Shown: positions 4,142 through 9,687, counted from the first letter of the stretch. The stretch: DNA of 9,687 nucleotides from Candidatus Nanopusillus sp. (GCA_036845085.1 DAIUEN010000008.1:1-9687); one strand, 5' to 3'. Made by a program: numbers and translations. The notes: a model not told the origin generated them from the sequence alone.

Positions 4142-4620
4142 TGATGAATGAAAATACAAAAAAAGAAGAATTTGTTAGTCTAGATCTAAGAGTTTTACCA
4201 TATTGGAATCTAATAAGAATTGCAAAAATTATTGAAGATAGAGTTCTAAATATAGATAGTACTGAATATTTATTAAGATTAACACATGAAATTCCGAATC
4301 CAGATATAATAAAAAATGAGATTTTAAAAAGATTAAAAAACTTATATTCAATTTCACTTGCAATATTATCAATTTATGGTAGAGAAAAAGAAATATTAAA
4401 GGATTATAAAGAAATTATGAGTATACCTAATATTGATGAAATACTACCTAGAATCTCATATTATACAACTAAAATATTAACAGAATTATATCAATTAATG
4501 AAAGATTTAGGTTTATTACCAAAAGAAAGAGAAAGAGACGAATTAGAAGAGCTTGAAGATTTCTTAAGTACAAAATTATACGAAGAAGATGGAACTACTG
4601 GAGAAACAACTAATAGATAA
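4138..4620 (+). CDS. Helical hypothetical protein with acidic C-terminus
   Basis: 160-aa ORF whose start overlaps the upstream stop (ATGA). Composition is consistent with the neighbouring genes. The C-terminus is RERDELEELEDFLSTKLYEEDGTTGETTNR. No motif recognised. Confidence 0.7.
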   Translation: MMMNENTKKEEFVSLDLRVLPYWNLIRIAKIIEDRVLNIDSTEYLLRLTHEIPNPDIIKNEILKRLKNLYSISLAILSIYGREKEILKDYKEIMSIPNIDEILPRISYYTTKILTELYQLMKDLGLLPKERERDELEELEDFLSTKLYEEDGTTGETTNR

Positions 4621-5422
4621 ATTTTTTAATGTAGAGATTCCAAAAAAATCAGTCTTAGAATTTTTTAAATCAAAATATCCACATATTTTTTTTGCATATT
4701 TAATAAAAAGAACTTTTAGAGAAGATTGGAATCTAGAAATTGTCATTGATGGGAATAAAGGTGTAGGGAAATCTTATTTAGGATTTAAAATATTAGAAAC
4801 TTTTACTTATTTAGATTCAAAAGAAAAATATTCTCAAGACATCATCAAAAAATCTTTTATTGTTCCTTTACCTGTTACATCATTATCAGATAAAGAAGAA
4901 ATAAACTTAATAGTAGAACAAATCAAAGAAGCTTTAGAAGATGATAATATTAAATTGATTGTTTTTGATGAAGCAGGAGATTTATTATTTACTTATGATA
5001 GAATGACAAAAGAAGCGAAATTATTAGTAAAAATATTAAGGAAAGTTAGAAAATATAAAAAATCATTTATATTTATTCATCCGCATATTTTTGAATTAAA
5101 TCCTAATATAAAATATAGATCTTTTAGTTTATGGATACATGGCTTATATAGAGTTTATAATAAATATTCAAGGTTTGTAGTATTAAGAGGTATTGACTAT
5201 AAAAAAGAATTTGTTTATTCTTTGGATCATATAAAGCATGCTTTGGATGTTTATAACATACAAGGTTGGTTTAAAAATAAATATTATTTATTTTCTTTTA
5301 ATTTTAATTATAATCCTGATGATTATTCAAATTATAAAGAATTATTAAGGGAAAAACAACAAGAACTTATCTTATCTAAAGAAACAAAAATTTATGGAGT
5401 AACTATAAGAGAAATTTATTAA
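4589..5422 (+). CDS. P-loop NTPase (candidate virion-assembly, packaging or replication ATPase)
   Basis: Walker A is GNKGVGKS (aa 55-62, nt 4751-4774). Walker B is IKLIVFDEAG (D127/E128, nt 4967-4972). The only in-frame ATG before the P-loop is at 4589, overlapping the upstream gene by 32 nt. It is the last gene of the operon and is followed by T-tracts. Confidence 0.85.
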   Translation: MELLEKQLIDKFFNVEIPKKSVLEFFKSKYPHIFFAYLIKRTFREDWNLEIVIDGNKGVGKSYLGFKILETFTYLDSKEKYSQDIIKKSFIVPLPVTSLSDKEEINLIVEQIKEALEDDNIKLIVFDEAGDLLFTYDRMTKEAKLLVKILRKVRKYKKSFIFIHPHIFELNPNIKYRSFSLWIHGLYRVYNKYSRFVVLRGIDYKKEFVYSLDHIKHALDVYNIQGWFKNKYYLFSFNFNYNPDDYSNYKELLREKQQELILSKETKIYGVTIREIY

Positions 5423-5424
5423 AA

Positions 5425-5450
5425 TTTTTAGTACAACTCAATAATTTTTT
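5425..5450 (+). terminator. Oligo-T tracts downstream of the operon (archaeal-type terminator candidates)
   Basis: T5 at 5425-5429 and T6 at 5445-5450 lie just after the TAA at 5420-5422. Archaeal RNA polymerase terminates at oligo-T. The background is very AT-rich, so specificity is low. Confidence 0.35.
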
Positions 5451-5485
5451 AAATATTAGTGAGTATATTACTCCATTCTCGTGAT

Positions 5486-5495
5486 GCACATGTGC
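5486..5495. repeat. Perfect 10-bp palindrome GCACATGTGC inside a locally GC-rich island (about 5478-5510)
   Basis: Read directly. It is embedded in ctcgtgatGCACATGTGCtacctctgatcgg, which is far more GC-rich than its surroundings. Confidence 0.5.
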
Positions 5496-5555
5496 TACCT
5501 CTGATCGGTAAAAAATAGAAAAGATAATATTTTAAATTATAAATTATAGGGAACA

Positions 5556-5645
5556 CTTTGGGTACCTTTTGGGTACCCATGTCATCAAAAAAATTTTTTT
5601 TTTTGAAAATCGAGGGTAACGAATGGGTACCCAAAGAGTACCCAT
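5556..5645. promoter_or_regulatory. Inverted, helically phased GGGTACC-box array flanking an A7T11 tract (candidate origin of replication or operator)
   Basis: Two perfect 10-bp palindromes TGGGTACCCA sit at 5570-5579 and 5624-5633. Each has a degenerate copy 11 bp further out (TGGGTACCTT at 5559-5568 and AGAGTACCCA at 5635-5644). TTTGGGTACCCAT (5568-5580) is the exact reverse complement of ATGGGTACCCAAA (5623-5635). The spacer contains TCA7T11GA (5585-5606) and a degenerate GGGTAAC (5614-5620). Confidence 0.6.
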
Positions 5646-5734
5646 CCATTAGACTTAACCTAGATAAATTTTTTGTGTCTTTCTGTTGTTACTATTCAAT
5701 ACTAAAACGTTAGTTTTATAAAATATGATGTTCG

Positions 5735-5760
5735 TTGATTATCATTATTGATTATCAATA
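5735..5760. repeat. TTGATTATCA direct repeat (13-bp period) overlapping a 15-bp palindrome
   Basis: TTGATTATCA occurs at 5735-5744 and 5748-5757. TATTGAT-T-ATCAATA at 5746-5760 is a palindrome with perfect 7-bp arms. Confidence 0.5.
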
Positions 5761-5770
5761 TCAAAATTTG

Positions 5771-5814
5771 GAAACCTCACGCGTAGGTGGACGTCCACTC
5801 CTGTATGAGATTTC
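5771..5814. other. GC-rich imperfect inverted repeat or hairpin with a central perfect 12-bp palindrome (candidate structured RNA or protein-binding site)
   Basis: GAAACCTCA (5771-5779) pairs with TGAGATTTC (5806-5814) at 8 of 9 positions. The centre is GTGGACGTCCAC (5787-5798), a perfect palindrome. Local G+C is far above the window background. Confidence 0.45.
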
Positions 5815-6126
5815 AAAAATTGCATTTTTGTTACTTTTTAGTGACAAAATTATCAAAATTTATTCATAAATATATACGATAATTTTAACCATAATTTAGT
5901 GGTGTATGTGTGTCTCTACTGATATATCAAACAATAAAAATAAATAATATATATATTTTCTTTTTTAGAATTTTGTTATAATATAAATATTCCTATTAAT
6001 AATATTATTAATTAGTAATAAAACAAAACTATTACAAAGCTAACATATATTATCACAATATTTCAGATTATTTTTAAATAATAAAAAGACGTTAAATTTT
6101 TAAATTTTAAGGTATAATAATATAAT

Positions 6127-6768
6127 ATGGCACTTGAAAAGATATCAGATCCAAATCCTCAAGAAGCAGAAGGCAAAGATATAGATGAAATAAAGCTAAT
6201 AGAAACGGCCAAGTTTGATCCAAAAGAAGTAAGAGATCTAGTAAATACTTTAAATTCTCGGGGTATAGAACTTCAAAAATTATATCTTAGTTATATATTC
6301 GAAAAGGATCAAAATGAAAAAGAAAGATTAAAACAAGAATTCAACAAAATAAAAGAACAGAATGACAATCTAATAAAAGAACTCGAGCAAAAAAGTAAAG
6401 ATTTTATTAAAGATGCAGAAAATATTATAAAGCATCTCCAAGTATATGAAATATGGTTCAAGAAAGATAAATCTAATAATACCTATGCAATATTATATAG
6501 TAAAATATATAATGATATATTTAATAGGCTGGAAGATTTAGATAATGCATATAAAATATTAGAAAAAGAAAGTATAACAGATTATGCAAAAGAAAAATTT
6601 AGAGAAATTAGAATGAAACTAAAAGAGATTGTTGACGAATTATACAAAATAAAAGATGAAACTGAAAAAATGTATGACCTTGCTTATTTAATAAAAACTA
6701 CTTTAGGTATTAACAAAGCAGAAGGACATATTTTATCTAATCTTGCTAACAAAAGACGCCTTATATAA
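6127..6768 (+). CDS. Alpha-helical, coiled-coil-rich hypothetical protein (213 aa)
   Basis: Clean ORF after the long non-coding interval, with AT-rich TATA-like boxes upstream (tttttaaatttta). K/E/L-rich heptad-like segments (EKERLKQEFNKIKEQNDNLIKELEQKSKDF and KEKFREIRMKLKEIVDELYKIKDETEKMYD). Two T6 tracts follow the stop (6787-6792 and 6799-6804). Confidence 0.8.
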   Translation: MALEKISDPNPQEAEGKDIDEIKLIETAKFDPKEVRDLVNTLNSRGIELQKLYLSYIFEKDQNEKERLKQEFNKIKEQNDNLIKELEQKSKDFIKDAENIIKHLQVYEIWFKKDKSNNTYAILYSKIYNDIFNRLEDLDNAYKILEKESITDYAKEKFREIRMKLKEIVDELYKIKDETEKMYDLAYLIKTTLGINKAEGHILSNLANKRRLI

Positions 6769-6809: not shown

Positions 6810-7061
6810 ATGTTAAACAATTATCAAAAAGGACGTGCTAAAGAATATCGAATCAAACAAAAATTAAAAAAAGAAGGATATTATACTATTAGAAGTGCAG
6901 GATCACATTCATATTTTGATTTGATTGCAATAAACAAAGAAAAAAAAGAAATATTACTTATACAAGTAAAATCAAATAAAACCAAAAAAATAGAAGAATT
7001 TTATCAAAAATTAAATAATGAGTTTAGTGGACAATACACTGTTAAAGTTGTATTATTGTAA
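6810..7061 (+). CDS. hjc: Minimal archaeal Hjc-type Holliday-junction-resolvase-like PD-(D/E)xK nuclease (83 aa) with QxK in place of ExK
   Basis: YQKGRAKEYRIKQKLKKEGYYTIRSAGSHSYFDLIAINKEKKEILLIQVKS aligns by eye with my recollection of Pyrococcus Hjc ([48 protein letters not shown]). E12, the RSAGS motif, D37 and K54 are conserved. The position of catalytic Glu46 is Gln52 (CAA, 6963-6965). The protein stops about 40 aa short of the roughly 120-140 aa typical of Hjc. Confidence 0.7.
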   Translation: MLNNYQKGRAKEYRIKQKLKKEGYYTIRSAGSHSYFDLIAINKEKKEILLIQVKSNKTKKIEEFYQKLNNEFSGQYTVKVVLL

Positions 7062-7412: not shown

Positions 7413-7467
7413 ATTCCTATATATTATGTAAAAAAATTTATTAGTTTTTGTGTTTATGTTTTTAAAA

Positions 7468-7531
7468 CTACAATGTAGTACTAGTATATACACTAGTAGC
7501 AAAAATTTATTAATATTTCGTATTAATATTT
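7468..7531. promoter_or_regulatory. Palindrome-rich and repeat-rich divergent control region
   Basis: CTACA-A-TGTAG lies at 7468-7478. TACTAGT (7479-7485) and ACTAGTA (7492-7498) are inverted repeats around ATATAC, giving two ACTAGT cores 12 bp apart. TATTAATATTT is directly repeated at 7508-7518 and 7521-7531, ending 5 nt before the ATG at 7536 (TATA-like, compatible with a short or absent leader). Confidence 0.4.
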
Positions 7532-7535
7532 TATT

Positions 7536-7790
7536 ATGGCTCAATTGGTTCAGATACCTACAAGCGAAATTTTGTCTAAGCTGAGAGATACAATAAAGAG
7601 CCTAGAAGTATTAGAGAACAGCAGTATGAATATAATTCTTGGCTTTGAGGTTAAAATAACCAAAGTATCACAATATAGGTATTTAGCGAATTTATCAAAA
7701 TTTGAAATAACTGAAAAAGATAAATTAGTTGGAATAAGGATAAAAGATTTATTGATATTCTTAATAAAGAAAAATGAGAGATCCAATTGA
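7536..7790 (+). CDS. Small hypothetical protein (84 aa), first gene of a three-gene overlapping cassette
   Basis: ORF with composition like its neighbours. It overlaps the next gene by 17 nt. The N-terminus QLVQIPTSEILSKLRD is faintly AbrB/SpoVT-like, but I cannot support that call. Confidence 0.65.
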   Translation: MAQLVQIPTSEILSKLRDTIKSLEVLENSSMNIILGFEVKITKVSQYRYLANLSKFEITEKDKLVGIRIKDLLIFLIKKNERSN

Positions 7791-8343
7791 ACAAATAAAA
7801 TTTTATCTAGATCAAGTAAAAGCAGATATACTAGAGCAAATAAAACAAACTAAAAAAGAGATAATAGAATATATTGACAAAAATCTAAATAAAATATCAG
7901 AAACTAAACCAAAAAGAAATTTCAACATCGAAAACTATATTAAAATAACAGATTATTTATTACAATTACACAAAGAAAAACCAACCAAAGCATATTTATA
8001 TAATCAACTAATAAAAGATATAAACAATAAACTAAATATAGAACAAGATGAAATCAAAAATATACTTAATTTATTAATTAAAAAAAGAATATTATTTAAA
8101 ATAGATTCTCCAAATAATGAGGAATTATATATAATATCTAAAAAAATACTGAGATATCAAAATAAAAAATCAAATACTAATCAAGATAATAAAAAACAAG
8201 AAACACAAAGTACTCAAGATCAACAACAAGATCAAAACAAAAATGAAAGTACAGTGAAACCAGCTGAAGTTCTTGATTTATCAGTATCTAAAAAATATGT
8301 TTCTAGACAAGCAGTTGATCAGTATTCTAGAGAAATCTATTAA
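7774..8343 (+). CDS. Hypothetical protein with a possible winged-helix DNA-binding core and a Q/N/K-rich low-complexity region
   Basis: 189-aa ORF. The segment ITDYLLQLHKEKPTKAYLYNQLIKDINNKLNIEQDEIKNILNLLIKKRILFKIDSPNNEELYIIS has a helix-helix-helix-hairpin pattern typical of wHTH domains (inference only). The low-complexity stretch is NKKSNTNQDNKKQETQSTQDQQQDQNKNES. Confidence 0.7.
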   Translation: MRDPIEQIKFYLDQVKADILEQIKQTKKEIIEYIDKNLNKISETKPKRNFNIENYIKITDYLLQLHKEKPTKAYLYNQLIKDINNKLNIEQDEIKNILNLLIKKRILFKIDSPNNEELYIISKKILRYQNKKSNTNQDNKKQETQSTQDQQQDQNKNESTVKPAEVLDLSVSKKYVSRQAVDQYSREIY

Positions 8344-9687
8344 AAGAAGAGAAGATATAGCTGCATTCTATGAATTAGCAAGTTTAGTATCTAATAACAA
8401 AAGCATAGATTTAAAAGAACTAGAAAGATTATTTCAAATTTATATAAAAAGTAAGAATGATACACTATTAAAATTGGAGTTATCAAAATATGGAAAAACT
8501 ACATTTTTTGGAAGGATACAAGCATGGAAAGTAGATATTTCTAGAAAACTAATAATTGTAAGATTGTCAGATAAATTAAGGGCAATAATTCCATTAGATT
8601 TATTTGAATCTTTAGATCCCTACGAAATAATACGAGAATTAGATAACCTAATAGAAATGCAAATAGTACGAAATGGTGGAAATAATCTTGTGATATCACT
8701 AACTACGTATAATATAAATGAAGACAAAAATTCTGCACAAAAAATATTAGAACAAGAACATCCAATTAAAGTTTTAGTAGAAGCATTAGGATTTTACTTT
8801 AATTATAATACATTTAGGGCAAACCTACCGAGAATAATTGCATTATTTAAGGTTCCTGTTGATGTCTATGCATCTTCAGCAATTCATCTACTACAATTTA
8901 CATTACCTGGAACAGGAAAATCAACAACAATGTACAAATTATGGAATATTTTAAATTTAGAGATCATAGGAGGTGGTCTACCATCTCCTGCTAAACTTAT
9001 TTATAATGCACAAACTCATGAAAAAGGATTAGTATATACAAGAGATTATATTATATTAGATGAATTTGATAAAAGTATCAAAAAAGAAAACTATGAATTT
9101 TTTAGTATGATACAATCAGGTATGGCTAATGGAATATGGACAAGAGAAAAATCTACAAAACTTCCATTAGGTAAACTTAAAAAAGATACTACTTTAATAT
9201 TCTTCGGAAATATAGAAGGAAATCTACTTAGAAATACAGAAAACTTTAGAGATTATATTGAAAGATATATACACGGTGTTCTAGAATCGGAAAATATAGC
9301 AAAAGCTTTTACAGATAGAATTTCAATAATCGATTTATATACTGGCAAACCATTAGTAGAATATACACATGATAAAATACCAATAGCTGCCATATTACGA
9401 GGTATCTTTAGAATTTTAGAAGAAAAAGCATATCAAATTGAAGCTCCAAACTTTGATCTAATTGGAAGACAGAGAATTCATGCAAAACAAATATACAAAG
9501 TTATAAGAGCATTAGGAATAGAAGAACCTCTAGCATATGAATTTACTCAAAATTTAGTTACTGGTGATGCTAACATAGAAAATACGTATAAAGAAGTATA
9601 TAAACAGATTACAGGAAAAGATCCTGATTCAGAATCTAATAAAAAATCAGATACATCGGAACTTGTCAAAAAAATAGAGATAAAAGA
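8297..9687 (+). CDS. AAA+ ATPase of the MCM / BrxL(Lon-like) / MoxR clade with an N-terminal domain of about 200 aa; 3' partial (runs off the window); candidate replicative helicase or initiator
   Basis: Not in the supplied track. I translated frame 2 by hand. There is a stop at 8255-8257, the first ATG is at 8297, and no stop follows through 9687 (463 codons). Walker A is LPGTGKST (nt 8906-8926). Walker B is YIILDEFDK (nt 9050-9073), matching the MCM-style DEFDK. The next segment FFSMIQSGMANGIWTREKS resembles the helix-2-insert region. The sensor-1-like motif is TTLIFFGN (N305, nt 9209-9211). The Arg-finger-like motif is AFTDRISIIDL (R341, nt 9317-9319; compare MCM LLSRFDLIF and MoxR LLDRF). 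Confidence 0.85.
   Translation, partial: MFLDKQLISILEKSIKRREDIAAFYELASLVSNNKSIDLKELERLFQIYIKSKNDTLLKLELSKYGKTTFFGRIQAWKVDISRKLIIVRLSDKLRAIIPLDLFESLDPYEIIRELDNLIEMQIVRNGGNNLVISLTTYNINEDKNSAQKILEQEHPIKVLVEALGFYFNYNTFRANLPRIIALFKVPVDVYASSAIHLLQFTLPGTGKSTTMYKLWNILNLEIIGGGLPSPAKLIYNAQTHEKGLVYTRDYIILDEFDKSIKKENYEFFSMIQSGMANGIWTREKSTKLPLGKLKKDTTLIFFGNIEGNLLRNTENFRDYIERYIHGVLESENIAKAFTDRISIIDLYTGKPLVEYTHDKIPIAAILRGIFRILEEKAYQIEAPNFDLIGRQRIHAKQIYKVIRALGIEEPLAYEFTQNLVTGDANIENTYKEVYKQITGKDPDSESNKKSDTSELVKKIEIK

What the first reader, a model, noticed from the sequence alone, without database searches (positions are those of the whole stretch)
5556..5645. Phased inverted TGGGTACCCA boxes bracketing an A7T11 tract: candidate replication origin or repressor-controlled switch
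Two perfect 10-bp palindromes sit 54 bp apart centre to centre, about five helical turns. Each is accompanied 11 bp outward by a degenerate copy, giving a mirror-symmetric arrangement of degenerate, perfect, spacer, perfect, degenerate. The spacer holds an 18-bp pure A/T run (A7T11). G/C-containing 10-mers repeated like this are very unlikely by chance in sequence of about 25% G+C. The layout resembles inverted origin-recognition boxes around an unwinding element in archaeal origins. It also resembles tandem or inverted operators bound by small RHH or wHTH regulators in archaeal viruses. It lies between the morphogenesis-like and replication-like modules. The T11 run could also act as a strong archaeal terminator for the upstream operon.
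Basis: seen in the sequence. Interest (0 to 1): 0.75.

Follow-up and report, generated by a model that had tools for sequence, protein, structure and literature searches.

The report
Phased GGGTACC box array, viral control region
A short non-coding stretch in a small, uncultivated hot-environment archaeal virus carries two arms of 11-bp-spaced GGGTACC boxes that almost certainly dock a DNA-binding protein, most likely as part of the replication-origin/control region; this is a familiar kind of element in an unfamiliar virus.

Summary
TGGGTACCCA occurs perfectly at 5570 and 5624, with degenerate copies at 5559 and 5635 and A7T11 at 5587-5604, far beyond chance. The true anatomy is two arms of 11-bp-phased GGGTAC units (5549/5560/5571 and 5614/5625/5636) forming a 22-nt inverted repeat.

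It is non-coding: the 66-aa ORF is broken in three 99.4%-identical contigs. It is also the divergence hotspot of the genome. Those contigs carry an extra 11-bp unit, T6 instead of T11, and box spacing of 49 rather than 54 bp. So the "five helical turns" and the T11 are not conserved. A7T11 is not a weak duplex. The least stable DNA in the window lies 300 bp downstream (5922-6022) in the same 704-bp intergenic region, which also holds every GC-rich palindrome of the window.

The boxes occur nowhere else in the window or in relatives, and relatives carry their own different iterons or palindromes.

Best reading (about 0.4): a docking array for a virus-encoded dimeric protein within an origin/control region, upstream of an Hjc, winged-helix-like and gp18/BrxL-like ATPase module. 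Pure operator, centromere- or maturation-type site and RNA hairpin/terminator remain open. It is a new member of a known kind, of moderate-low interest.

The parts
5423..6126 (.). The 704-bp intergenic control region, the largest non-coding stretch of the window, between the P-loop ATPase gene (4589-5422) and the 213-aa gene (6127-6768)
   Evidence: ORF map. No ORF in it is conserved in L011. Gene calls on L011, L012 and L023 leave it empty.
5549..5581 (.). Left arm: three 11-bp units GGGAACACTTT / GGGTACCTTTT / GGGTACCCATG. L011, L012 and L023 have a fourth unit, GGGTACTCTTT.
   Evidence: (D1), alignment
5570..5579 (.). Left perfect palindromic box TGGGTACCCA
5587..5604 (+). A7T11 tract. It is A7T6 in the three other variants. 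It is a rigid A-tract/T-tract spacer, not a low-stability segment.
5614..5646 (.). Right arm: three 11-bp units GGGTAACGAAT / GGGTACCCAAA / GAGTACCCATC
   Evidence: (D1)
5624..5633 (.). Right perfect palindromic box TGGGTACCCA
5559..5644 (.). Inverted repeat with arms 5559-5580 and 5623-5644 (22 nt, 91% complementary). The arms are a perfect 21-bp match in L011, L012 and L023.
   Evidence: I7; sequences
5486..5495 (.). Separate GC-rich perfect palindrome GCACATGTGC
5735..5760 (.). Tandem 13-bp repeat TTGATTATCATTA / TTGATTATCAATA, each near-palindromic
   Evidence: (D3)
5771..5814 (.). Second imperfect palindrome (44 bp) with the perfect 12-bp core GTGGACGTCCAC at 5787-5798. The core TGGACGTCCA shares the TGG-N4-CCA frame with the boxes.
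5922..6022 (.). Least stable 100-bp duplex segment of the whole window (-92.9 kcal/mol against a mean of -111.8, sd 5.3). It is the best candidate for a melting region.
   Evidence: GC 0.16 for 5851-6150
5660..5676 (-). Promoter-like motif ACAAAAAATTTATCTAG on the minus strand, pointing into the right arm. It resembles GCAAAAATTTATTAATA, which lies 30 nt before ATG 7536.
   Evidence: AAAAATTTAT occurs 6 times on both strands; 3 are in intergenic DNA. Read by eye; weak in 20% G+C DNA.
6810..7061 (+). Hjc-type Holliday junction resolvase gene, part of the downstream DNA-metabolism module
   Evidence: Pfam Hjc 30.4 bits (cutoff 21.1); PHROG and NCBIfam hits
7774..8343 (+). 189-aa protein with an N-terminal long helix and a three-helix HTH/winged-helix-like core. 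It overlaps the ATPase gene and is the best candidate for the box-binding protein.
   Evidence: 29% identity (E 9e-6) to the 177-aa protein at the same position in L021. AF2 helices 52-103, low confidence. Weak Pfam HTH_9 hit. No significant Foldseek hit, but the top of the list is wH/HTH domains. Orphan in 1.84 billion representatives.
8297..9687 (+). BrxL-like (MCM-fold) AAA+ ATPase, homologous to rudivirus SIRV2 ORF436 (gp18). The gene runs off the window end.
   Evidence: Pfam BrxL_ATPase 3.8e-14; phrog_6542 4.6e-24; tblastn to SIRV1/2; annotation

Best explanation
The element is a non-coding, symmetric docking array for a sequence-specific, probably dimeric, virus-encoded DNA-binding protein.

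Each arm offers three or four GGGTAC(C) boxes spaced 11 bp apart, about one helical turn. Several protein dimers can therefore line up on one face of the DNA. The two arms are mirror images around a stiff A7Tn tract.

I think the array is the recognition part of the element's replication-origin/control region. That region also includes the neighbouring palindromes (5486, 5735-5760, 5771-5814) and the most easily melted DNA of the window (5922-6022). In this model, bound protein marks the site and helps the host replisome, or the virus's own gp18/BrxL-like ring ATPase, gain access to the adjacent A+T-rich DNA.

Shown:
- the repeat architecture and its statistical significance;
- that it is non-coding;
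- that it is unique in the window;
- its position in the largest intergenic region, at a mosaic junction;
- the adjacent minimum of duplex stability;
- rapid change by unit slippage.

Inferred: that a protein binds, which protein it is, and that the outcome is replication initiation rather than transcription control only.
For: 1. Boxes and phasing are far beyond chance.
2. Perfect spacer-less palindromes suit dimer binding to duplex DNA and cannot form good hairpins on their own (sequence).
3. All four perfect >=10-bp palindromes with >=6 G/C in the window lie in 5486-5798. Three of them share TGG-N4-CCA.
4. The same intergenic region holds the window's least stable 100-bp duplex, 5922-6022, 3.6 sd from the mean.
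5. GGGTAC/GTACCC occur only in the element, apart from one GTACCC at 2124. The protein therefore has one address, as expected for an origin or centromere and not for a regulator of several promoters.
6. The nearest start codon downstream is about 480 bp away, and its own promoter-like TATA lies directly before it. The boxes are therefore not a promoter-proximal operator for any conserved ORF.
7. No ORF across the element is kept in L011.
8. Relatives of this virus group have their own lineage-specific 10-11-bp iteron arrays or large palindromes in long non-coding regions. L013 has TCGTCAAATA x6 plus further direct and inverted copies. L021/L022 have a 34-bp perfect palindrome upstream of the homologous wH + ATPase module. 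This matches fast co-evolution of a site with its binding protein: the wH proteins are only 29% identical.
9. 4 of 28 substitutions and all 3 indels between the window and L011 fall in 5499-5609. Unit gain/loss and homopolymer slippage are typical of iteron arrays.
10. The general definition of archaeal origins is an AT-rich DUE flanked by repeats of variable number, orientation and spacing (PMC5333045).
Against: - No recognisable initiator (Orc1/Cdc6, Rep, primase-polymerase) is encoded in the window.
- The ATPase just upstream is a generic RecA/Zot-like P-loop protein by structure. TM scores are about 0.3.
- The rudiviral homologue of the BrxL-like ATPase, SIRV2 gp18, is described as an ssDNA-annealing protein of a recombination/maturation operon, not an initiator (PMC5062984). 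BrxL itself has no demonstrated helicase activity (PMC10164562).
- Cumulative GC skew shows no turning point at the element.
- The tract between the boxes is not a weak duplex.
- The inter-arm distance changes by 5 bp, about half a turn, among natural variants. Any mechanism needing fixed phasing across the spacer is unlikely.
- If the window is only half of a 19.5-kb genome, a better origin candidate may lie in the unseen half.
- Promoter-like motifs face into both arms, which fits an operator equally well.
Confidence: 0.4

Rival explanations
1. Transcription operator or switch only. A small virus-encoded repressor (RHH, wH or AbrB-like) binds cooperatively to the phased boxes. It blocks inward-facing promoters whose start sites fall on the outermost boxes, controlling short transcripts or a leaderless micro-ORF. 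Replication is not involved.
For: - SSV1 F55 (RHH) binds sites made of two tandem 11-bp repeats overlapping BRE/TSS (PMC5569661).
- Promoter-like motifs flank both arms and point inward. On the plus strand, GAAAAG-ATAATATTTTAAATT lies at about 5515-5536. On the minus strand, ACAAAAAATTTATCTAG lies at 5660-5676. The latter resembles the motif 30 nt before ATG 7536.
- In L021 the palindrome is likewise framed by inward-facing GAAAAGTTTAAATA / GAAAAATTTATAAAG motifs.
- Central T-runs on both strands (T11/T6 and T7) would stop such transcripts.
Against: - No conserved ORF or known RNA family would be controlled.
- The boxes are absent from the other promoter regions, for example 7413-7535.
- TATA-like strings are abundant in 20% G+C DNA: the sigma-70-type scan found no excess of promoter-like sites, and AAAAATTTAT also occurs inside genes.
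- No RHH or other small regulator family was detected in the window proteins.
Confidence: 0.27
2. Centromere-like, packaging or genome-maturation site. The phased arrays assemble a higher-order nucleoprotein complex, as ParR does on parC. That complex is used for segregation of an episome, for genome packaging, or as the target of the Hjc + gp18-like recombination/maturation proteins.
For: - The layout closely mirrors parC of plasmid R1: two sets of 11-bp iterons separated by a 39-bp promoter-bearing spacer, one dimer per iteron, forming a U-shaped complex (PMC2241845). Here there are 3-4 + 3 units of 11 bp with a 27-32-bp gap.
- The boxes occur at a single site.
- The downstream module contains Hjc and a homologue of SIRV2 gp18, which is assigned to recombination and/or genome maturation.
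- The AnTn tract would bend the DNA.
Against: - No ParM/ParA-type or terminase-type gene follows the site, and no gene starts within 480 bp.
- The flanks are not mirror images, and four independent assemblies read straight through the palindrome. It is therefore not a hairpin-telomere junction in most of the sequenced molecules.
- The middle of the palindrome is asymmetric: 7 nt between the left box and the A-run, against 19 nt between the T-run and the right box.
Confidence: 0.13
3. RNA-level element. The inverted repeat is transcribed and works as a hairpin, either a bidirectional terminator together with the T-runs or a small structured RNA.
For: - The strand folds far better than shuffles: RNA -45 kcal/mol, z -6.7; DNA -26.5 kcal/mol, z -5.9.
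- T11/T6 on the plus strand and T7 on the minus strand sit at the tip.
- G+C is raised (0.28-0.32) relative to the neighbouring non-coding DNA.
Against: - Any long inverted repeat gives such z-scores.
- Rfam finds only sub-threshold generic hairpin (miRNA-precursor, WsnRNA46) matches, and on both strands.
- The T-run lies in the loop rather than after the stem, so no terminator-like site is called.
- T5 and T6 runs already follow the upstream stop codon.
- The two substitutions in the inner stem, 5582 and 5609, are not compensatory: both pair in L011 and neither pairs in the window.
- Unit indels change the arms unequally.
Confidence: 0.1
4. It encodes a small protein. The minus-strand micro-ORF 5544-5645 (33 aa) is translated from a leaderless mRNA, and the repeats are a by-product of its sequence.
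For: - The ORF keeps its frame and both ends in L011 (35 aa) despite a +11 and a -5 indel.
- A promoter-like motif lies 24-28 nt upstream of its ATG.
Against: - A net indel divisible by 3 has a one-in-three chance.
- The ends are conserved because they are the boxes themselves, while the middle of the peptide is completely different in the two variants.
- There are no family hits for the overlapping ORFs 5449-5649 (-) and 5558-5713 (+); the 33-aa micro-ORF itself was not searched against any protein database.
- G+C-rich boxes are naturally free of stop codons.
Confidence: 0.04

Closest known systems
Iteron-type origins of plasmids and viruses, and archaeal ORB/DUE origins
   Same: Short repeats in helical phase lie in direct and inverted orientation in a non-coding region, next to the least stable A+T-rich DNA. 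Archaeal origins are defined as an AT-rich DUE flanked by repeats whose number, orientation and spacing vary (PMC5333045).
   Different: - The boxes are self-complementary (dimer-type), not polar ORB elements.
- There is no Orc1/Cdc6 or Rep gene nearby.
- The tract between the boxes is not the weak duplex; that lies 300 bp away.
- Initiation has not been mapped.
parC centromere of plasmid R1 (ParR/ParM, type II partition)
   Same: Two clusters of 11-bp repeats are separated by a roughly 30-40-bp spacer, in intrinsically curved DNA, at one site per replicon (PMC2241845).
   Different: - There are 3-4 + 3 units instead of 5 + 5.
- The arms are mirror-symmetric.
- No par operon follows.
- No actin-like or ParA-like ATPase is present.
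Operators of archaeal-virus RHH/wH regulators (SSV1 F55, SIRV1 SvtR, AFV6 AvtR)
   Same: These are tandem 11-bp or imperfect inverted-repeat sites bound by small dimeric regulators of archaeal viruses (PMC5569661).
   Different: - Those sites overlap promoters of known genes and usually recur at several promoters. Here there is a single site far from any conserved ORF.
- No RHH protein was detected.
Papillomavirus/polyomavirus-type core origins (recalled from general knowledge, not tested)
   Same: Palindromic boxes of an adaptor or initiator protein lie beside an A/T tract and are used to load a ring ATPase symmetrically. Papillomavirus E2 sites (ACC-N6-GGT) have the same 'triplet-spacer-triplet' style as TGG-N4-CCA.
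   Different: The proteins are unrelated (SF3 helicases versus a gp18/BrxL-like AAA+). There is no evidence here for helicase activity or loading.

Membership tests
Archaeal Orc1/Cdc6-dependent origin (ORB + DUE) | An A+T-rich duplex unwinding element lying between the repeats | tested here: not met
   A7T11 is of average stability, rank 2645 of 9667 for 20-bp windows. The element-centred 100 bp is among the most stable, rank 9583 of 9587.
Archaeal Orc1/Cdc6-dependent origin (ORB + DUE) | An adjacent orc1/cdc6 initiator gene | tested here: not met
   No Orc1/Cdc6 hit in Pfam, NCBIfam or PHROGs. The upstream ATPase is RecA/Zot-like by AF2 + Foldseek.
Archaeal Orc1/Cdc6-dependent origin (ORB + DUE) | Repeats matching an ORB or mini-ORB consensus | not tested
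   No ORB model was available. The two-arm pattern found nothing in 185,579 genomes.
Iteron-type origin | Three or more short repeats in helical phase | tested here: met
   Six units (seven in L011) at an 11-bp period
Iteron-type origin | A neighbouring low-stability A+T-rich region | tested here: met
   5922-6022 is the least stable 100 bp of the window.
Iteron-type origin | A linked initiator gene whose product binds the iterons, and initiation mapped at the site | not testable with these tools
   There is only a candidate: the wH-like 189-aa protein paired with the AAA+ ATPase.
Operator of a viral RHH/wH repressor (F55-like) | Tandem or inverted short repeats | tested here: met
   comparator in PMC5569661
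Operator of a viral RHH/wH repressor (F55-like) | Overlap with the BRE/TATA/TSS of a promoter of a gene | tested here: inconclusive
   Promoter-like motifs face both arms, but no conserved ORF or known RNA lies downstream of them.
Operator of a viral RHH/wH repressor (F55-like) | Further copies at other regulated promoters | tested here: not met
   GGGTAC/GTACCC are confined to the element.
Type II partition centromere (parC) | Two clusters of 11-bp iterons around a short spacer | tested here: met
   PMC2241845
Type II partition centromere (parC) | Sits directly upstream of a parM/parR-type operon | tested here: not met
   The next ORF starts 480 bp away, and no actin-like or ParA-like protein is present.
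Known structured RNA (Rfam) | A match reaching a family's gathering score | tested here: not met
   The best hits are 32 bits against thresholds of 65-100. They are generic hairpin families and match on both strands.
Intrinsic terminator of the upstream operon | A conserved oligo-T run as the first termination signal after the stop codon | tested here: not met
   T5 (5426) and T6 (5444) come first. T11 is T6 in three variants. No terminator-like site is called.
Hairpin-telomere resolution junction (N15 telRL or poxvirus/rudivirus type) | A perfect or near-perfect palindrome at its centre, with a protelomerase gene or mirrored flanks | tested here: not met
   The centre is asymmetric and the flanks are unique. 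Four assemblies read through the site. Hjc is present, but no protelomerase is.

The most novel reading that the evidence does not exclude
The array would be the loading site of a previously unrecognised origin-initiator pair. A winged-helix-like adaptor (the 189-aa protein) binds the TGG-N4-CCA boxes as dimers. It then recruits the overlapping-gene partner, a gp18/BrxL-like MCM-fold ring ATPase, symmetrically onto the two arms. This would give the first cis-acting target for this ATPase family, which is also found in rudiviruses and, as BrxL, in BREX defence. It would also define replication in a new, very rare family of small viruses from hot springs and hydrothermal vents.
Probability: 0.15. 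Interest if true: 0.6.

Novelty: new member of a known kind. Interest (0 to 1): 0.35.

Why it matters
The host element belongs to a very rare, undescribed group of small archaeal viruses or plasmids from 85 °C springs and deep-sea vents. Its proteins have at most a handful of relatives among billions of sequences. Almost nothing is known about how such elements start replication or control their genes.

A well-delimited, statistically solid protein-docking array gives experimenters a concrete DNA probe. So does a short list of candidate binding proteins. The natural unit-number and spacing variants already show which features are dispensable.

If the wH + gp18/BrxL-like pair proves to act here, it would also bear on what the BrxL/gp18 ATPase family does on DNA. 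Otherwise the element is an ordinary example of a repeat-rich control region.

Tried and rejected
1. **Coding explanation.** The 66-aa (-) and 51-aa (+) ORFs are broken or truncated in L011 and have no family hits.
2. **tRNA, tmRNA or known RNA.** ARAGORN found none. Rfam gave only sub-threshold generic hairpins.
3. **Shared boxes elsewhere.**
   - The viral-contig scan gave 10 unrelated phage contigs (39-70% G+C) with other TGGGTACCCA arrays and no protein similarity.
   - The metagenome scan gave only this virus and a histone-H3-bearing eukaryotic contig.
   - The genome scan found nothing.
   - A literature search for the box gave only cloning primers.
4. **Upstream ATPase as an Orc/DnaA-like initiator.**
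   - There is a weak PHROG 'DnaA-like' hit.
   - AF2 + Foldseek give generic RecA/RadA/KaiC/FlaH/Zot folds with TM about 0.3.
   - The PDB profile search was empty.
   - No relatives were found in phage, plasmid or genome collections.
5. **Restriction-site avoidance (GTAC, GGTACC).** GTAC is not depleted: 24 observed against 14-20 expected.
6. **A7T11 as the melting site.** Rejected on nearest-neighbour stability.
7. **GC-skew origin signal.** The skew is monotonic and dominated by one-strand coding.
8. **Compensatory change in the hairpin.** None was found.
9. **Host or source identification.** JGI sample numbers were not found in the literature. The Nanoarchaeota-virus lead went nowhere.
10. 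**Retrieving the 19,461-bp NCBI contig.** It is not in the index.
11. **Circularity of the window.** Unresolved; see noticed items.

Full report
**1. The observation**

- Perfect TGGGTACCCA boxes lie at 5570-5579 and 5624-5633.
- Two-mismatch copies lie 11 bp outward, at 5559 and 5635.
- A7 is at 5587-5593 and T11 at 5594-5604.

The pattern has 5 matches at <=2 mismatches against 0.81 expected, and none of 200 shuffles reached 5. In 1500 first-order Markov simulations the window is expected to hold 0.18 perfect 10-bp palindromes with >=6 G/C. It holds four. No simulation reached four or repeated one.

**2. The real anatomy**

The repeat unit is an 11-bp unit headed by GGGTAC. Units start at 5549, 5560 and 5571 on the left and at 5614, 5625 and 5636 on the right (D1).

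Because the core is self-complementary, the arms also read as a 22-nt inverted repeat, 91% complementary (I7). This repeat sits inside a 95-bp imperfect palindrome (I2).

GGGTAC and GTACCC occur nowhere else in the 9.7 kb, except one GTACCC at 2124.

**3. What the window is**

The window is 25% G+C and almost all genes are on one strand. The left part encodes a large N-glycosylation-motif-rich protein with C-terminal membrane helices, small membrane proteins and a P-loop ATPase (4589-5422).

The right part encodes:
- an Hjc-type resolvase, above the Pfam cutoff;
- a 189-aa helix-turn-helix/winged-helix-like protein;
- overlapping it, a BrxL-like AAA+ ATPase.

The ATPase is homologous to SIRV1/2 ORF436. 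That protein is gp18, from an operon credited with ssDNA binding, annealing and nuclease activities in recombination or genome maturation (PMC5062984). BrxL has an MCM-like fold and binds DNA, but no helicase activity has been shown (PMC10164562).

Relatives are extremely few and come from 85 °C spring sediment and vent metagenomes.

The genome is mosaic. The left module is shared with L013/L016/L017 at 30-52% protein identity. On the right, the ATPase (45%) is shared with L021/L022, and the 189-aa protein matches L021's 177-aa protein at 29%. The switch lies in the 704-bp intergenic region that holds the element.

**4. Natural variants**

Three independent contigs (L011, L012, L023) are 99.4% identical to the window. 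Between the window and L011 there are 28 substitutions and 3 indels in 9.3 kb. Four substitutions and all three indels fall in 5499-5609.

The other variants differ in three ways:
- They carry an extra left unit, GGGTACTCTTT, which makes the two arms a perfect 21-bp inverted repeat.
- They have T6 instead of T11.
- They lack a 7-bp duplication, AAATTAT.

The consequences are:
- The distance between the perfect boxes is 49 bp, not 54 bp, in 3 of 4 variants. Phasing across the spacer is therefore not conserved, while the 11-bp intra-arm period is.
- The T11 is not a conserved feature.
- The 66-aa minus ORF and the 51-aa plus ORF are disrupted, so the element is non-coding.

**5. The neighbourhood**

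All four GC-rich perfect palindromes of the window lie within 5486-5798: GCACATGTGC, the two boxes, and GTGGACGTCCAC. The last is the core of a second, 44-bp imperfect palindrome (5771-5814). Its core, TGGACGTCCA, shares the TGG-N4-CCA frame with the boxes. That frame has 6 matches against 0.47 expected.

A tandem 13-bp near-palindrome lies at 5735-5760.

Nearest-neighbour stability shows that A7T11 is unremarkable and that the element as a whole is one of the most stable 100-bp stretches. The least stable 100 bp of the entire window is 5922-6022, in the same intergenic region.

T5 and T6 runs directly follow the upstream stop codon. The central T-run is therefore not needed to end the upstream operon.

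**6. Relatives**

None of the relatives has the GGGTACC boxes, but each has its own repeats.
- L013 has six 10-bp TCGTCAAATA iterons, plus about eight more direct and inverted copies, in an 800-bp non-coding region. It also has a dense CCACGTAC array upstream of a small gene.
- L021/L022 share the wH + ATPase pair. They carry a 34-bp perfect palindrome about 90 bp upstream of that module, framed by inward-facing BRE/TATA-like motifs.
- The wH-like proteins are only 29% identical. The window's protein is an orphan among 1.84 billion representatives.

Site and candidate binder thus diverge together. This is expected for a specific protein-DNA pair, but it does not say what the pair does.

**7. 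RNA and other alternatives**

The strand folds much better than shuffles, as any inverted repeat must. Rfam gives only sub-threshold generic hairpin matches on both strands. No tRNA was found and no terminator-like site. The two inner-stem substitutions are not compensatory.

Searches of viral, metagenome and genome collections for the box architecture returned only this virus plus unrelated phages and a eukaryotic contig. TGGGTACCCA arrays have therefore arisen independently elsewhere and carry no homology signal.

**8. Interpretation**

The safest statement is that this is a single-copy, non-coding, fast-evolving docking array for a dimeric sequence-specific protein.

I rank the origin/control-region reading first, at about 0.4, for these reasons:
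- It is the only site of its kind.
- It is not promoter-proximal to any conserved gene.
- It sits in a cluster of other palindromes, next to the window's weakest duplex.
- It lies at a module junction upstream of the DNA-metabolism genes.

A pure operator is second, at about 0.27. The F55-type precedent is documented in PMC5569661, and inward-facing promoter-like motifs are present. A parC-like centromere or maturation site is third, at about 0.13. The architecture is strikingly like R1 parC (PMC2241845), but no par genes are present. An RNA hairpin/terminator (about 0.1) and a micro-ORF (about 0.04) follow.

Three specifics do not: five-turn phasing, A7T11 as the unwinding element, and T11 as a strong terminator.

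**9. Completeness of the genome**

Joining the window end to its start closes the ATPase ORF at 470 aa, against 467 aa for the homologue. The stop codon overlaps ATG 25 as TAATG.

The only NCBI contig carrying these proteins is 19,461 bp, which equals 2 x 9,687 + 87. This suggests a 9.7-kb circular unit.

Against this, the frame upstream of ATG 25 (VDKIMIRKY) is homologous to the DWIRVRKY strand that ends a DUF2341 domain in 943-1095-aa homologues. The gene may therefore simply be cut by the window start.

This remains unresolved. It matters because in a 9.7-kb circle this intergenic region would be the only sizeable non-coding DNA.

**10. Verdict**

The feature is real, and its class, a repeat-rich protein-binding control element, is well known. 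It is a new member of a known kind, in a poorly known virus group. Interest is moderate-low (0.35).

Noticed in passing
window 9687 joined to 1-27: Joining the window end to its start completes the BrxL-like ATPase ORF at 470 aa (homologue 467 aa), with the stop overlapping the next gene's ATG as TAATG. The NCBI contig carrying these proteins is 19,461 bp, which equals 2 x 9,687 + 87. The window may therefore be one unit of a circular or concatemeric 9.7-kb genome. Against this, VDKIMIRKY upstream of ATG 25 is homologous to the DWIRVRKY end of a DUF2341 domain in 943-1095-aa homologues, so the gene may be cut by the window start.
   Followed up: partly
window 9687; L011 and L012 contig ends: Two independent JGI contigs end at exactly the last base of the window, inside the ATPase gene. 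Divergence between the window and L011 is raised in 372-900, with 7 substitutions. This suggests a common assembly-graph branch (strain-variable adhesin N-terminus or a deletion junction) or a physical end.
   Followed up: partly
window 5544-5645 (-): A 33-aa minus-strand micro-ORF over the element keeps its frame and both ends in L011 (35 aa) despite +11 and -5 indels. It has a promoter-like motif 24-28 nt upstream. It is probably a by-product of the conserved boxes.
   Followed up: partly
window 5771-5814 and 5486-5495: There are further GC-rich palindromes in the same intergenic region. GTGGACGTCCAC lies inside a 44-bp imperfect palindrome, followed by a T5 run, with a fold z-score of only -1.8. 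GCACATGTGC lies within a C/D-box-like string (GTGATGC...CTGA) whose Rfam sR28 hit is only 9.5 bits.
   Followed up: partly
window 5735-5760: A tandem 13-bp near-palindromic repeat, TTGATTATCATTA/TTGATTATCAATA, lies about 20 nt after a TATA-like TTTTATAAAA (5714-5723). It could be an operator of its own.
   Followed up: no
L013 11305-11709 and 12670-12850: A relative carries about 14 copies of a (T)CGTCAAAT iteron at 10-11-bp spacing, in two clusters that include inverted copies. It also has a dense array of about 15 CCACGTAC motifs directly upstream of a 72-aa gene.
   Followed up: partly
L019 4649-4679, L020 1361-1396 (ends of contigs): All four contigs of the P0002 lineage stop 60-100 bp after the ATPase gene. 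Two of them run into a pure G/C tract, GGGGCCGGGGGGAGGGGGGGAGGGGCCCCCCC. This is either a real GC-rich element at the syntenic position or a poly-G sequencing artefact.
   Followed up: no
L021 5536-5611; L013 5429-5476; L016 5979-6034: Relatives have large palindromes whose arms contain the motif AAAAGTTTAAA(A/T)AC, which is BRE/TATA-like. The motifs face inward in L021 and lie in a divergent-gene interval in L013/L016.
   Followed up: partly
window 8297-9687 and 6810-7061: The Hjc plus gp18/BrxL-like ATPase combination mirrors rudivirus and lipothrixvirus gene content, at 25-28% identity to SIRV1/2, SRV and AFV-type proteins. Yet it sits in a genome whose structural module looks unrelated to those filamentous viruses.
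   Followed up: partly
L001, L006-L008 (69% G+C phage contigs); L004, L010 (39% G+C): Unrelated phages carry their own triplets of (A/G)TGGGTACCCA(C/T) boxes at about 23-bp spacing around TTGACA/TATATT-like hexamers. These are probably repressor operators and represent convergent use of the same palindrome.
   Followed up: no
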